This document shows, in pieces, positions 40,259 to 45,365 of a stretch of DNA of 64,000 nt. The notes under the pieces were generated by a model. That model was not told where the DNA came from. It saw nothing but the letters and a program-made list of their open reading frames with translations, and ran no database searches. The position numbers and the translations under genes are program-made. The stretch is from Escherichia coli. GTDB taxonomy: Bacteria; Pseudomonadota; Gammaproteobacteria; Enterobacterales; Enterobacteriaceae. The stretch lies in NCBI RefSeq assembly GCF_024502345.1, contig NZ_JALDNN010000001.1; one strand, given 5' to 3'. Position 1 is the stretch's first letter. Each line of letters starts with the position of its first letter.

Positions 40259-40267
40259 GCTCTGAAG
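40259..40267. repeat. 9-bp target-site duplication GCTCTGAAG (left copy)
   Basis: Identical 9-mer directly flanks both IS ends. Confidence 0.9.
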
Positions 40268-40285
40268 GGCTTTGTTGAATAAATC
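40268..40285. repeat. IS903 left terminal inverted repeat
   Basis: GGCTTTGTTGAATAAATC. Confidence 0.9.
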
Positions 40286-40299
40286 GAACTTTTGCTGAG

Positions 40300-41268
40300 T
40301 TGAAGGATCAGATCACGTATCTTCCCGACAACGCAGACCGTTCCGTGGCAAAGCAAAAGTTCAAAATCACCAACTGGCCCACCTACAATAAAGCCCTCAT
40401 CAACCGTGGCTCCATAACTTTCTGGCTGGATGATGAAGCTATTCAGGCCTGGTATGAGTCAGCAACACCTTCTTCACGAGGCAGACCTCAGCGCTATTCT
40501 GACCTTGCCATCACGACTGTGCTGGTCATTAAACGCGTATTCAGGCTGACCCTGCGCGCTGCGCAGGGCTTTATTGATTCCATTTTTTCTCTGATGAACG
40601 TTCCGCTACGCTGCCCGGATTACAGCTGTGTCAGCAGGCGGGCAAAGTCGGTTAATGTCAGTTTCAAAACGCCCACCCGGGGTGAAATCGCACACCTGGT
40701 AATTGATTCCACCGGGCTGAAGGTCTTCGGTGAAGGCGAGTGGAAAGTCAAAAAGCATGGCCAGGAACGCCGCCGTATCTGGCGTAAGCTGCATCTCGCC
40801 GTTGACAGTAAAACACATGAAATCATCTGCGCTGACCTGTCGCTGAACAACGTTACGGACTCAGAGGCCTTCCCCGGGTTAATCCGGCAAACCCACCGGA
40901 AAATCAGGTCAGCCGCCGCCGATGGCGCTTACGATACCCGGCTATGTCACGATGAACTGCGGCGTAAGAAAATCAGCGCGCTTATCCCTCCCCGAAAAGG
41001 TGCGGGTTACTGGCCCGGTGAATATGCAGACCGTAACCGTGCAGTGGCTAATCAGCGAATGACCGGGAGTAATGCGCGGTGGAAATGGACAACAGATTAC
41101 AACCGTCGCTCGATAGCGGAAACGGCGATGTACCGGGTAAAACAGCTGTTCGGGGGTTCACTGACACTGCGTGACTACGATGGTCAGGTTGCAGAGGCTA
41201 TGGCCCTGGTACGAGCGCTGAACAAAATGACGAAAGCAGGTATGCCTGAAAGCGTGCGTATTGCCTGA
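40300..41268 (+). CDS. IS903-family DDE transposase
   Basis: ORF track 322 aa (MKDQITYLPDNADRSVAKQKFKITNWPTYNK...); the track start is a TTG codon, true initiation codon uncertain. Confidence 0.88.
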   Translation: MKDQITYLPDNADRSVAKQKFKITNWPTYNKALINRGSITFWLDDEAIQAWYESATPSSRGRPQRYSDLAITTVLVIKRVFRLTLRAAQGFIDSIFSLMNVPLRCPDYSCVSRRAKSVNVSFKTPTRGEIAHLVIDSTGLKVFGEGEWKVKKHGQERRRIWRKLHLAVDSKTHEIICADLSLNNVTDSEAFPGLIRQTHRKIRSAAADGAYDTRLCHDELRRKKISALIPPRKGAGYWPGEYADRNRAVANQRMTGSNARWKWTTDYNRRSIAETAMYRVKQLFGGSLTLRDYDGQVAEAMALVRALNKMTKAGMPESVRIA

Positions 41269-41306
41269 AAACACAACCCGCTACGGGGGAGACTTACCCG
41301 AAATCT

Positions 41307-41324
41307 GATTTATTCAACAAAGCC
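41307..41324. repeat. IS903 right terminal inverted repeat
   Basis: GATTTATTCAACAAAGCC, exact reverse complement of the left IR. Confidence 0.9.
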
Positions 41325-41333
41325 GCTCTGAAG
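41325..41333. repeat. 9-bp target-site duplication GCTCTGAAG (right copy)
   Basis: Identical to 40259-40267. Confidence 0.9.
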
Positions 41334-41965
41334 ACCCGGCAAGAACTGATTGAAACTGCCATCGCCCAGTTTGCGCAACATGGCGTAAGCAAGACGACGC
41401 TCAACGACATTGCCGATGCCGCTAACGTTACGCGTGGCGCTATCTACTGGCACTTCGAAAACAAGACTCAACTGTTTAATGAGATGTGGTTGCAACAGCC
41501 TTCATTGCGGGAGTTAATCCAGGAACACTTGACGGCTGGATTAGAGCATGACCCGTTTCAACAATTGCGTGAAAAATTGATTGTCGGCTTGCAATATATT
41601 GCCAAAATTCCCCGCCAGCAGGCGTTGCTGAAAATCTTATATCACAAATGTGAATTTAATGATGAGATGCTGGCCGAGGGAGTGATACGCGAAAAGATGG
41701 GCTTTAATCCGCAGACTCTCCGCGAAGTATTGCAGGCGTGTCAGCAACAAGGTTGTGTAGCAAATAACCTCGATTTAGATGTTGTGATGATTATTATTGA
41801 TGGTGCCTTCAGCGGAATTGTTCAAAACTGGTTAATGAATATGGCGGGTTATGATCTTTATAAACAAACCCCCGCTCTGGTCGATAACGTATTAAGAATG
41901 TTCATGCCAGATGAAAACATAACGAAATTAATTCATCAAACGAATGAATTAAGTGTCATGTAAAT

Positions 41966-42228: not shown

Positions 42229-43113
42229 TTACTTTGCAATGAGATCGGGGTCAACTTCGCTTAACCGGCTTCGTTTTGACAGGTTGCCGGTCTTTCTTTT
42301 TTTCACTTTCGCCAGTTCTTCCGCAGAGTAATGCGACGCGACATCCAGCCGTCGAAGCCCCATTTTGATGTACTCGCTGTTGATCTCAATACCAATGAAT
42401 TTTCGCCCGCTGGAGACGGCTACGGCACCGGTAGTAAAGCTACCGGCAAACGGGTCGAGAACGATATCGCCTGGGTTGGAAGAGGCGAGAATAATGCGTT
42501 TCAGTAAGGCTTCCGGTTTTTGCGTCGGGTGGTTTTCATATTCATCCATCAAATAACGCACGCGCGGAAAATCCCAGACGTTACCCGGTACTTTTTGATG
42601 ATTGTAAGGCTGTGGAGGATTTTTGCGATAATCGATCAACGCGCGCTGCGATCCGGTTTTGGCTTCTACCAGAATAGCATCACCGTTGAACGTGTAGTTC
42701 TTTGCGTCTTTCACCATCATCAGGATGGGTTCATACATGGAACCGTAGTGTTTTTTCGCCTGCACTCCAGAACTGTCATATGACCAGACGATGCGACTTT
42801 TGATGGTAAAAAGCTTGCGGCACTGGAGATCGATAAAGGGCATGTTTTCCGTACTGTTCATGATGTACATGCTGCCCTGCTTTTTCAGAACGCGGTGGCA
42901 CTCTGCAATCACTTCAAACAGCCAGTCGATAAACAGATCTTCTTTCCAGGCTTCGATCAGACCATCAAAATTTTTACCGATGTTATACGGTGGGTCGGCA
43001 AAGATCAGATCGACGCTTTCAGTAGGTAGCTTTTTAAGTTCGGCAAGGGCATCACCGTGAATAATGGTCTTAGCTTCATTACCAAACCGGGTCGGTTCAC
43101 ATCCTGTTCTCAT
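42229..43113 (-). CDS. yhdJ: DNA adenine (N6) methyltransferase YhdJ
   Basis: ORF track; DPPY catalytic motif (IFADPPYNIGK); start set at ATG 43111-43113. Confidence 0.92.
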   Translation of the reverse strand: MRTGCEPTRFGNEAKTIIHGDALAELKKLPTESVDLIFADPPYNIGKNFDGLIEAWKEDLFIDWLFEVIAECHRVLKKQGSMYIMNSTENMPFIDLQCRKLFTIKSRIVWSYDSSGVQAKKHYGSMYEPILMMVKDAKNYTFNGDAILVEAKTGSQRALIDYRKNPPQPYNHQKVPGNVWDFPRVRYLMDEYENHPTQKPEALLKRIILASSNPGDIVLDPFAGSFTTGAVAVSSGRKFIGIEINSEYIKMGLRRLDVASHYSAEELAKVKKRKTGNLSKRSRLSEVDPDLIAK

Positions 43114-43132
43114 GGTCACTCCCTTTGTGACA

Positions 43133-43177
43133 CCTATAAAAAAGGCGCTTCCCCATGCCGAGTAGCGCCTTTTTAAT
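43133..43177 (-). terminator. Intrinsic terminator that in K-12-like genomes lies directly after fis; here on the far side of the insertion
   Basis: 8-bp stem AAGGCGCT / AGCGCCTT with 14-nt loop, T-tracts on both sides. Confidence 0.7.
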
Positions 43178-43197
43178 CAAGCATTTAGCTAACCTGA

Positions 43198-43214
43198 ATT
43201 AGTTCATGCCGTAT
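43198..43214. repeat. 17-bp direct repeat TTAGTTCATGCCGTATT, distal att-like copy
   Basis: 17/17 identical to 45069-45085, which is the fis stop codon plus last codons. Confidence 0.85.
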
Positions 43215-43382
43215 TGTAAAATACAGAGTCATTATACGTAATTTATTATCACTCTAGATAATTTGTATTCATCATAAATAATTGATGCGGAAAGAGATAT
43301 TTATTTTTTATTGGCTCGCATTGTATCATCAGTTATCAGTTACTCCCTGCATACAGTTGTCAAAAAGGTTGTCATTAACTCT

Positions 43383-43551
43383 ATGGCCGAAAATAAACTC
43401 TCAGATGTTCAATTGCGTGCGTTAACCCGCAAAGTCATCGAAAAACCTTTTGATGTTGCTGACGGTGGCCAAGTTGGGTGAAAACCTGCTATGCAGCTAC
43501 CGCATAAGGGTAGTGGATTCCGCTGAAATCTTGCCGTTCATCCGATCATAA
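43383..43551 (+). pseudogene. Tyrosine-integrase N-terminal (arm-type DNA-binding domain) fragment, frameshifted and truncated
   Basis: Hand translation: MAENKLSDVQLRALTRKVIEKPFDVADGGQVG-stop, then +1 frame LGENLLCSYRIRVVDSAEILPFIRS; resembles the EKPY..DG(N/G)GLYL...WxxRY pattern of P4-type integrase N-termini. Confidence 0.45.
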
Positions 43552-43575
43552 CATCACAACAGTTGTTGCCCATTA

Positions 43576-43606
43576 CCCTGGCGAATGCCGGGGCTTTTTT
43601 TATTTT
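43576..43606 (+). terminator. Candidate intrinsic terminator downstream of the integrase fragment
   Basis: Imperfect stem CCCTGG..CCGGGG followed by CTTTTTTTATTTT. Confidence 0.3.
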
Positions 43607-43619
43607 CAAAGTGACGCCT

Positions 43620-43923
43620 AGGTGTCATTAATTTATAAGGTGTCATGGTAGGTGTCATTGTTCTCAAGCCATAACCCGCAAGGGTTGCGACATTACTAAT
43701 GACACCTATGACACCTATGACAGCATTTTTAAAGAAAATAACGACCACTGTAATAATGTAACAGTGGTCGTTATACTTTATAGAAATGGGTGTCATGGTG
43801 TCACAGGTGTCATTCATTACAGTATCTTGTTTGTATTTTTCTTTAATAATCAGCGTGTTTCCCGCTATGACACCTAATGACACCTTTCCAACATAACGCC
43901 GTCATGGTGACATTAGGTGTCAT
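43620..43923. repeat. Array of 13 copies of the 9-bp motif AGGTGTCAT in both orientations
   Basis: Forward copies at 43620, 43638, 43650, 43789, 43797 (GGTGTCAC), 43805, 43906 (GGTGACAT), 43915; reverse ATGACACCT at 43699, 43708, 43717 (degenerate), 43867, 43877. Confidence 0.85.
43738..43774. repeat. Perfect palindrome with 14-bp arms and 9-nt AT-rich loop, at the centre of the motif array
   Basis: ATAACGACCACTGT-AATAATGTA-ACAGTGGTCGTTAT. Confidence 0.85.
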
Positions 43924-44274
43924 CGCCATCTGCTGCCAAAAAAGTCAAGGTACTTCCGAGGGGGGTACAGCCTGCGGGGGCATTGGTCCCGCGTAATTCG
44001 CGTTGTGCGTGCCCCTACAAAACTCACTTTATGATTACGTCAAGTAAATCAATCATTTATGTGAATCCTATCAAAGCACTGGCACCATACGTGCGCGATT
44101 GCAAAATAAAGCGAACACGTTTTACACACGCTGAATTGTAAAGATGTGTAAATATCGATTACGCCGGATTATGCCGGGTTATTTGCAAGTATTCAGGGTT
44201 ATAAGTTACTGATTTTACATTAAAAAGCTCACATTGTGGCTATTGTGTTCGGTCTGGTTACTGTATATCTTTAA

Positions 44275-44991
44275 GTCATTCCAGGCGATTTAGCTGGCCT
44301 GGCGCTGGCAGGTTATCAGATTTACCGCCATTGGGCTGGTGTGAAGGCTTTCTTTGGCGGAGTGGGTGAAGGCATCAAATCCGGGCTGGAACCGCTTAGC
44401 GACGCTCTGAGCCGCCTTTATGAACGCATGGGGCCGCTGAAACCTGTCATTGATGGTGTGGGTGCTGCGGTTAAGACGGTTTTCAACTGGTTCACGTCAT
44501 TGACCGAGCCGGTCAAGTACAGTGGCGAGGAACTGGATAAGGCCGGTAAAATGGGGATGACGTTCGGTAAGACCCTGGCGGCTGGCATCGAGCTTGTGAC
44601 CGCACCGATCACGTTCCTGATTGATAAGATTCTGTGGGTGTCTGACAACATCGGCAACCTGACCAACAAGGCACTGGAGTTTAAAAACGCCGTGTCTGAT
44701 GTTGCTGGTGGTGCGTGGCAGAAAACCAAAGATTTCTTTACCGCACCATTCCGCGACGATGTACAGCAGCCAGCAGCAACCACTGCCTCTGGTGCTGCCC
44801 TGCCGTCACCTGCACTGGCCAACCGCTCTGGTGGCACTACGGTGCATAGCAACGACCAGTACCACATCAGCGTGAAGGCAGAACCTGGTATGAATGAAGA
44901 TGCATTAGCCCGGAAGGTGATACAGCAACTACGACAGCAACAAGCAGTAAGGCAGCGAAGCATGATGATAGATGGCGCGCAAACACCATAA
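44275..44991 (+). pseudogene. 5'-truncated ORF, possibly a phage tail tape-measure-like protein C-terminal region
   Basis: Frame is open from 44275 (stop at 44272-44274) with no good start or RBS; Gly/Ala-rich and hydrophobic segments (GVGAAVKTVFNWF, ITFLIDKILWV); product guessed from composition only. Confidence 0.35.
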
Positions 44992-45068
44992 GGGTTGTCA
45001 GTACGGTTGCAACAAAAAGTAAAGGGACTGAAATAGCCCCTTTAATTTCATGCCGTTACAGCTTGACT

Positions 45069-45085
45069 TTAGTTCATGCCGTATT
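45069..45085. repeat. 17-bp direct repeat TTAGTTCATGCCGTATT, fis-proximal att-like copy overlapping the fis stop codon
   Basis: Reverse complement encodes ..K-Y-G-M-N-stop of Fis. Confidence 0.85.
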
Positions 45086-45365
45086 TTTTCAATTTTTTAC
45101 GCAGCGTACCACGGTTGATGCCCATCATCAGCGCAGCACGGGTCTGGTTACCACGGGTGTATTGCATCACCATGTCCAACAGGGGCTGTTCTACTTCAGC
45201 CAGTACCAGCTCATAGAGGTCATTCACATCCTGACCATTCAGTTGAGCAAAATAGTTCTTCAGTGCCTGTTTAACCGAGTCACGCAGGGGTTTTTGGGTT
45301 ACCTGATCCTGAGAGTTAACGGTAGAAACGGTCAGTACGTCAGAATTTACGCGTTGTTCGAACAT
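45069..45365 (-). CDS. fis: DNA-binding nucleoid protein Fis
   Basis: ORF track 98 aa [51 protein letters not shown]... Confidence 0.97.

What the first reader, a model, noticed from the sequence alone, without database searches (positions are those of the whole stretch)
43383..43551. Frameshifted N-terminal fragment of a tyrosine integrase next to the distal att copy
Hand translation gives MAENKLSDVQLRALTRKVIEKPFDVADGGQVG then a stop; the +1 frame continues LGENLLCSYRIRVVDSAEILPFIRS. Together these resemble the arm-type DNA-binding N-terminus of P4-type integrases (the EKPY-x-L-x-DG-x-G-LYL ... W-x-L-RY pattern) with one frameshift and loss of the catalytic domain. It lies about 170 bp inside the left att-like repeat and reads inward. 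This supports the integrative-element interpretation and dates it as old and inactivated.
Basis: partly seen in the sequence, partly recalled or inferred. Interest (0 to 1): 0.55.

Follow-up and report, generated by a model that had tools for sequence, protein, structure and literature searches.

The report
Deletion-truncated integrase stub of fis satellite
The 169-bp stretch holds the first 29 codons of a phage-satellite integrase, joined by a 3.7-kb deletion (not a frameshift) to the tail of an unrelated small gene; it is part of a dead 1.9-kb remnant of a known kind of satellite that inserts at the end of the fis gene, which is ordinary genome decay.

Summary
The ATG at 43383 is the true start of a 411-aa tyrosine integrase (Arm-DNA-bind_3 plus Phage_integrase domains). 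This integrase is intact in about 47 of 5,426 complete E. coli genomes, within a 9.5-kb element between yhdJ and fis. Only codons 1-29 (43383-43469) survive in the window.

There is no frameshift. At 43466-43469 (TGGC microhomology) a 3.73-kb deletion joins int to the last 27 codons of a 74-aa hypothetical gene that normally lies downstream of the element's VapE-type primase.

A second 3.91-kb deletion (44291/44292) removed the late genes and left the C-terminal 232 codons (233 with the stop) of a tape-measure gene. What remains is attL (43199-43215), the int stub, an orphan iteron-rich origin, the tape-measure fragment and attR (45069-85, the fis 3' end).

The element is a "fis PICI", a family catalogued by Tommasini et al. 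2023. Public assemblies show decay intermediates.

The remnant differs from an intact copy at 4 of about 1,850 positions, fewer than the flanking genes do. It is therefore dead but not old. This is ordinary and already known.

The parts
43199..43215 (.). att copy on the yhdJ side (distal to fis): TTAGTTCATGCCGTATT, a duplicate of the last 5 codons plus stop of fis, read on the complementary strand
   Evidence: Exact 17/17 direct repeat with 45069-45085. The same pair flanks the intact 9.5-kb element in L001. A single copy is present at the empty site in L002. It contains the published fis-PICI identity block TACGGCATGAACTAA.
43216..43382 (+). Left end of the element: region upstream of int (presumed int promoter and attP arm)
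   Evidence: 0 mismatches to L001. It is absent from the empty site. One weak sigma-70-like match lies at 43255-43282, no more than chance would give.
43383..43469 (+). Codons 1-29 of the tyrosine integrase (MAENKLSDVQLRALTRKVIEKPFDVADGG); the residual ORF then reads QVG and a stop at 43479-43481
   Evidence: Identical to the first 87 nt of the annotated 411-aa integrase of JML285. The intact protein has Arm-DNA-bind_3 at 6-104 and Phage_integrase at 223-385.
43466..43469 (.). Deletion junction J1 (TGGC microhomology); 3,733 bp lost (rest of int, alpA, a 93-aa ORF, the VapE primase/helicase and the 5' part of the 74-aa ORF)
   Evidence: BLAST segments 43000-43469 = L001 7798-8267 and 43466-44292 = L001 12001-12827. 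Junction display. The identical junction is in L003, L005, L007, L008, L011, L012, L015, L016, L018 and L019.
43468..43551 (+).
   Evidence: Translation of L001 11862-12086 ends with the same 27 residues. No PHROG hit. No similarity to the integrase.
43576..43603 (+). Terminator-like hairpin plus T-run after the 74-aa gene
43613..43930 (.). Iteron array: 10 exact GGTGTCAT octamers in both orientations plus near-copies, around an AT-rich imperfect palindrome (43691-43821). This is the presumed satellite replication origin, now without its initiator gene
   Evidence: 10 of the window's 14 octamers lie in 303 bp (43621-43923), against 1.65 expected for the whole window. Inverted and direct repeat families. 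In intact copies it lies directly downstream of the VapE primase gene. Origin function is inferred.
44291..44292 (.). Deletion junction J2 (TA microhomology); 3,910 bp lost (six small late-zone ORFs and the first 529 codons of the tape-measure gene)
   Evidence: The junction is shared by all 18 fetched loci that encode the 216-aa fragment (for L003-L010; for L011-L020).
44293..44991 (+). C-terminal 232 codons plus stop of a 762-aa phage tail tape-measure gene (captured late gene); an internal GTG ORF of 216 aa at 44341-44991 is annotated elsewhere as 'hypothetical protein'
   Evidence: = L001 16740-17438, within the annotated tape-measure CDS. phrog_28 tape measure, E = 3.7e-103, for the intact protein. 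WP_249440348.1.
45020..45056 (-). Right end of the element: terminator-like hairpin (45044-45020) that now follows fis, next to a degenerate third copy of the fis end (TTAATTTCATGCCGT, 45042-45056)
   Evidence: (family D3).
45069..45085 (.). att copy at the real 3' end of fis (fis is 45069-45365 on the minus strand, intact, 98 aa)

Best explanation
Window 43199-45085 is a 1.9-kb dead remnant of a roughly 9.5-kb phage satellite of the 'fis PICI' kind. The ancestor's order was int, alpA-type excisionase/regulator, VapE-type primase-helicase, iteron origin, small late ORFs and a captured tail tape-measure gene. It integrated by site-specific recombination into the last 17 bp of fis and duplicated them. 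Two later illegitimate (microhomology) deletions removed its interior. The first (J2, TA) took the late genes. The second (J1, TGGC) took everything from codon 30 of int to near the end of a 74-aa gene. The flagged 169 bp is the J1 fusion: 29 codons of int followed, out of frame, by the last 27 codons of that other gene. The stub cannot bind arm sites or catalyse recombination, so the remnant is fixed in place. The sequence relationships and the order of events are shown. The satellite life cycle, the origin function of the iterons and the deletion mechanism are inferred.
For: The collinear three-segment match to the intact element in E. coli JML285, with exact junctions, is. The annotation of that element is int, HTH, hypothetical, VapE, hypothetical, six small ORFs, tape measure. 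It is supported by PHROG hits to integrase, excisionase, primase/helicase and tape measure and by Pfam Arm-DNA-bind_3 plus Phage_integrase. The empty site in a K-12-like genome has 85 bp between yhdJ and fis and one att copy. An exact 17-bp direct repeat bounds both the intact element and the remnant. The att block and the gene order match the published fis PICIs: consensus TACGGCATGAACTAA, int aiming inward, AlpA, a replication zone and a late zone with captured helper genes. The exact 17-mer is listed 282 times in that paper's supplement. Intermediates exist in public assemblies. L014, L017 and L020 have J2 only, with intact int, AlpA and VapE. L011, L012, L015, L016, L018 and L019 have J1+J2 identical to the window. 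L013 has J2 plus a different int-truncating deletion. No J1-only form was seen.
Against: No experiment shows that the intact element behaves as a satellite (induction, packaging). The family assignment rests on att site, gene order and one published survey. The intact relative has no recognisable Bro-zone gene; its 93-aa ORF has no PHROG hit. The tape-measure gene has no close DNA match among 50,697 phage records, so no helper is identified. J1 before J2 in an unsampled lineage cannot be strictly excluded.
Confidence: 0.95

Rival explanations
1. One reading: one integrase gene whose arm-binding N-terminal domain carries a single frameshift and continues in the +1 frame, with the catalytic domain lost separately; an ancient relic.
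For: The first peptide resembles P4-type integrase N-termini. It is indeed the start of an Arm-DNA-bind_3 integrase.
Against: The sequence after 43469 maps 3.7 kb downstream in the intact element and encodes the C-terminus of a different 74-aa protein. That protein shows no similarity to the integrase. The concatenated peptide has no Pfam hit at E<=10. The remnant is about 99.8% identical to an intact copy while the flanks are 97-99% identical.
Confidence: 0.02
2. Assembly or sequencing artefact: the junctions are mis-joins in this one assembly.
For: None of 5,426 complete RefSeq E. coli genomes carries the same remnant.
Against: The identical J1 and J2 junctions occur in independent NCBI, ENA and Logan contigs. 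These include L012 (GCA_001484235.1), whose flanks are 100% identical to the window.
Confidence: 0.01
3. The remnant is a non-autonomous mini-satellite (attL, origin, attR) that is still excised, replicated and moved in trans by a related fis PICI.
For: Both att cores and the iteron array are intact. Tandem occupation of fis by a second PICI next to a J2 derivative occurs in L017. The remnant is 100% identical in chromosomes whose flanks differ by 1-2%.
Against: In those other backgrounds the identical tract is not bounded by att. It extends 336 bp into yhdJ and 395 bp past attR and carries window-specific yhdJ alleles. That pattern is what homologous recombination gives, not site-specific transfer. 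No second PICI or matching integrase is at this locus in the window.
Confidence: 0.03

Closest known systems
fis PICIs (phage-inducible chromosomal islands integrated at the 3' end of fis; Tommasini, Mageeney & Williams 2023, PMC10111431)
   Same: The att identity block is the same: AATACGGCATGAACTAA contains their consensus TACGGCATGAACTAA. The position between fis and yhdJ is the same. In the intact relative, int is terminal and aims inward and is followed by an AlpA-type gene, a primase and a late zone with a captured phage late gene.
   Different: The window copy has lost int (except 29 codons), alpA, the primase and most of the late zone. It would fail their AlpA signature test. It resembles the handful of alpA-less fis islands under 4 kb that they list. 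No Bro-network gene was recognised in the intact relative.
P4-type tyrosine integrases with an Arm-DNA-bind_3 (PF13356) N-terminal domain
   Same: The intact gene has Arm-DNA-bind_3 (E = 1.9e-13) and Phage_integrase (E = 1.6e-14). The paper places PICI integrases in a clade with satellite P4.
   Different: The target is a protein-gene terminus (fis), not a tRNA gene. The window keeps only 29 of 411 residues. The best match in the phage collection is 53% identical.
Cryptic-prophage and island remnants with truncated int genes in E. coli
   Same: Internal microhomology deletions leave att sites and gene stubs behind. That such remnants are common in E. coli is general knowledge, not tested here.
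   Different: Here the intact parent, an intermediate and two alternative end-states are all available in public genomes.

Membership tests
Tyrosine integrase (P4-like, Arm-DNA-bind_3 + Phage_integrase) | N-terminal arm-type DNA-binding domain (PF13356) | tested here: not met
   The intact homologue has it at residues 6-104. The window keeps residues 1-29 only. The window peptide gives no Pfam hit. Descent from such a gene is shown by DNA identity, with 0/87 mismatches.
Tyrosine integrase (P4-like, Arm-DNA-bind_3 + Phage_integrase) | C-terminal catalytic domain with the catalytic tyrosine | tested here: not met
   Phage_integrase lies at 223-385 in the intact protein. That entire region falls within the 3,733 bp deleted at J1.
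fis PICI (Tommasini et al. 2023) | Flanking direct repeats that match the fis terminus identity block TACGGCATGAACTAA | tested here: met
   Exact 17-bp copies at 43199-43215 and 45069-45085 contain the block. A single copy is present at the empty site.
fis PICI (Tommasini et al. 2023) | Integration zone: terminal inward-facing int plus an AlpA/HTH_17 gene | tested here: not met
   Met in the intact and J2-only relatives. In the window only a 29-codon int stub remains and alpA is deleted.
fis PICI (Tommasini et al. 2023) | Replication zone: primase gene with adjacent origin | tested here: inconclusive
   The VapE/primase-helicase gene is present in relatives and deleted in the window. The iteron array is retained at 43613-43930, but origin activity was not tested.
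fis PICI (Tommasini et al. 2023) | Late zone with captured phage late genes and no full phage structural set | tested here: met
   A tape-measure gene is the only recognisable structural gene in the intact element. Its C-terminal 232 codons (233 with the stop) remain in the window.
fis PICI (Tommasini et al. 2023) | Helper-phage-dependent induction, replication and packaging | not testable with these tools
   This needs induction experiments. The paper cites excision and replication for one Klebsiella fis PICI only.
Frameshifted pseudogene | A small indel that, once corrected, restores one continuous reading frame colinear with the intact gene | tested here: not met
   The two frames derive from loci 3.7 kb apart in the intact element.

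The most novel reading that the evidence does not exclude
The attL-origin-attR remnant persists because it still does something. It might be mobilised in trans as a 'mini-PICI' by incoming fis PICIs. Its orphan iterons might titrate the primase/initiator of incoming satellites. Or its terminal hairpin might now serve as the fis terminator.
Probability: 0.04. Interest if true: 0.45.

Novelty: already known. Interest (0 to 1): 0.1.

Why it matters
The main value is for annotation. The stub at 43383-43469 should be labelled as a deletion-truncated integrase pseudogene of a fis-integrated satellite. The 216-aa ORF called 'hypothetical protein' (WP_249440348.1) should be labelled as a tape-measure gene fragment.

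The locus also gives a small, clean example of stepwise satellite decay. The parent, an intermediate and two alternative end-states are all present in public E. coli assemblies. It also shows that resemblance in a second reading frame can mislead a reader into calling a frameshift. It opens no new biological question.

Tried and rejected
This is uninformative for the 29-aa part because it is so short, so DNA identity to the intact gene was used instead.
- An exact-match scan of GTDB species-representative genomes for the J1 junction gave 0 hits. This was expected, since the remnant is confined to particular E. coli strains.
- Megablast of the intact tape-measure gene against 50,697 phage records gave no match. 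No helper or donor phage could be named.
- An Rfam scan of 43000-45200 found nothing near any gathering score. The sub-threshold plant and animal miRNA 'hits' only reflect the long palindrome in the iteron region.
- The promoter scan gave counts no higher than shuffled sequence.
- I first guessed a Shigella origin because of the IS in acrS. I dropped this guess: the 216-aa fragment is recorded under E. coli, and L012 (GCA_001484235.1) matches the window's flanks exactly.
- I considered att-bounded, in-trans transfer of the remnant between lineages and rejected it. The shared identical tract runs several hundred bp beyond both att copies.
- Loci L003-L010 never appeared as files for scripting. 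Pattern searches over the loci and a re-fetch with wider flanks were used instead.

Full report
**Context.** The finding lies between yhdJ (42229-43119, minus strand) and fis (45069-45365, minus strand), with dusB beyond. In nearly all of 5,426 complete E. coli genomes these two genes are adjacent. Only window 43100-43215 and the fis side match. A K-12-like genome has 85 bp between them. The window therefore carries about 1.85 kb of extra DNA.

**The observation.** E. coli JML285 carries a 9.5-kb insertion at the same place. Its annotation reads: tyrosine integrase (411 aa), HTH regulator (59 aa), hypothetical (93 aa), VapE-domain protein (562 aa), hypothetical (74 aa), a 0.77-kb gap, six small hypotheticals and a 762-aa tail tape-measure protein. 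PHROG profiles agree on integrase, excisionase/regulator, primase/helicase and tape measure. Pfam finds Arm-DNA-bind_3 (residues 6-104, E = 1.9e-13) and Phage_integrase (223-385, E = 1.6e-14) in the integrase.

The window aligns with this element in three collinear pieces:
- 43000-43469 = L001 7798-8267
- 43466-44292 = L001 12001-12827
- 44291-45500 = L001 16738-17947

The ATG at 43383 is the annotated integrase start, and codons 1-29 are identical at the DNA level.

**What the "frameshift" really is.** At 43466-43469 the integrase sequence ...GACGGTGGC meets ...CTGGCCAAGTTGGG from the 74-aa gene. The four bases TGGC are shared by both parents. The intervening 3,733 bp are gone: the rest of int, alpA, the 93-aa ORF, the primase and the 5' part of the 74-aa gene.

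This protein has no similarity to the integrase and no PHROG family. The true integrase continuation is SLSVRVTPSRRKILDGEKRPANNIQWLFRY..., which does carry the expected W-x-x-RY motif.

A second junction at 44291/44292 (TA microhomology) removes 3,910 bp. It leaves the last 232 codons (233 with the stop) of the tape-measure gene.

**The element and its att site.** An exact 17-bp direct repeat, TTAGTTCATGCCGTATT, bounds the intact element and the remnant (43199-43215 and 45069-45085). The empty site has one copy. On the other strand it reads AATACGGCATGAACTAA, which is the last five codons and the stop of fis.

Tommasini, Mageeney and Williams (2023, PMC10111431) mapped 3,565 islands at exactly this site and called them fis PICIs. 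Their identity-block consensus is TACGGCATGAACTAA. They describe an inward-facing int plus AlpA, a replication zone and a late zone that captures helper-phage late genes. They note a few alpA-less fis islands under 4 kb. The exact 17-mer occurs 282 times in their supplementary table. The remnant is therefore a decayed member of a described family.

The element's right end is a terminator-like hairpin at 45044-45020 next to a degenerate third copy of the fis end at 45042-56. It appears verbatim as flanking sequence of one of their E. coli islands (Eco9562.16.fis). That fits the tandem arrangement I saw in L017.

**History.** The intact integrase is present, once and on the chromosome, in 47 of 5,426 complete E. 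coli genomes. None of them has either deletion. Other public assemblies that encode the 216-aa tape-measure fragment (recorded as an E. coli 'hypothetical protein', WP_249440348.1) fall into three forms:
- J2 only, with int, AlpA, VapE and the 74-aa gene intact: L014, L017, L020.
- J1+J2, 100% identical to the window over 43199-45085: L011, L012, L015, L016, L018, L019.
- J2 plus a different left deletion that cuts int after codon 210: L013.

J2 therefore came first, and int was then lost at least twice independently. L012, L013 and L014 share the window's flanking haplotype, with 0-1 mismatch in 7.9 kb. So all three states exist within one close lineage.

Against the JML285 element the remnant has 0/254, 2/827 and 2/778 mismatches. 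By comparison, yhdJ has 28/891 and the dusB region 8/991.

The same remnant also sits in chromosomes whose flanks differ by 1-2%. There the identical tract runs 336 bp into yhdJ and 395 bp past attR and carries window-specific alleles. This points to homologous recombination rather than site-specific mobilisation.

**What is left and what it can do.** The 32-codon residual ORF covers only about a quarter of the arm-binding domain and none of the catalytic domain, so it cannot be a functional recombinase (inference). fis itself is intact.

The retained 0.3-kb array holds ten exact GGTGTCAT octamers in both orientations around an AT-rich palindrome. That is 10 of the window's 14 copies, against 1.65 expected for the whole window. 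In intact copies it sits immediately after the primase gene and is most likely the satellite's origin (inferred). One 9-nt unit varies in copy number between relatives. Rfam and the promoter scan add nothing.

**Verdict.** The integrative-element reading is right. The frameshift, the +1 continuation and the "old" dating are wrong. The feature is a deletion-truncated integrase stub inside a remnant of a known satellite family. It is ordinary, it is useful for annotation, and it gives a tidy example of stepwise decay.

Noticed in passing
window 43613-43930: A dense array of GGTGTCAT iterons (10 exact copies in both orientations) surrounds an AT-rich imperfect palindrome of about 130 nt. It is probably the satellite's replication origin, orphaned from its VapE-type primase. 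The 9-nt unit ATGACACCT at 43699-43707 is missing in L014 and L017, so iteron copy number varies.
   Followed up: partly
window 40268-41324: A 1,057-bp IS903B copy is inserted in acrS (envR) with a 9-bp target duplication GCTCTGAAG (40259-40267 and 41325-41333). It splits the 220-aa repressor gene of the acrEF efflux operon, leaving a 159-aa ORF downstream of the IS (41484-41963). Otherwise identical genomes (L012) lack it.
   Followed up: partly
window 45020-45056: The element's right end carries a terminator-like hairpin that now follows fis. Next to it is a degenerate third copy of the fis terminus (TTAATTTCATGCCGT), 26 nt before the real att copy. It may be a relic of an older att, or a built-in replacement for the native fis terminator, which is stranded at 43136-43177.
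   Followed up: no
L017 5845-15180 (Logan SRR21969523): A second, different PICI sits in tandem after the J2-deleted element. It encodes a 407-aa integrase, DUF6387, AlpA, AAA_25, Pox_D5, a Phage_cap_E major capsid protein and an HDPD decoration protein, so it looks capsid-forming. The published attR flank of Eco9562.16.fis carries the same neighbouring sequence.
   Followed up: partly
L013 8680-9952 (GCA_054852445.1): An independent decay product in the same chromosomal background: int is cut after codon 210 and joined to L001 position 12184 in the origin region. This gives a 285-aa called gene that still scores Arm-DNA-bind_3.
   Followed up: partly
L001 12853-15128 (JML285 element; deleted from the window): Six late-zone ORFs of the intact satellite (294, 104, 54, 105, 69 and 68 aa). 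The four scanned (294, 104, 105 and 69 aa) have no PHROG family. A satellite whose only recognisable structural gene is a full-length tape-measure gene, with no close DNA match in the phage collection, could merit its own study.
   Followed up: no
L011 2296-5393 (GCA_050022275.1): In this relative acrF is called as two genes (461 and 569 aa) instead of one of 1,034 aa. This suggests an acrF pseudogene in that strain.
   Followed up: no
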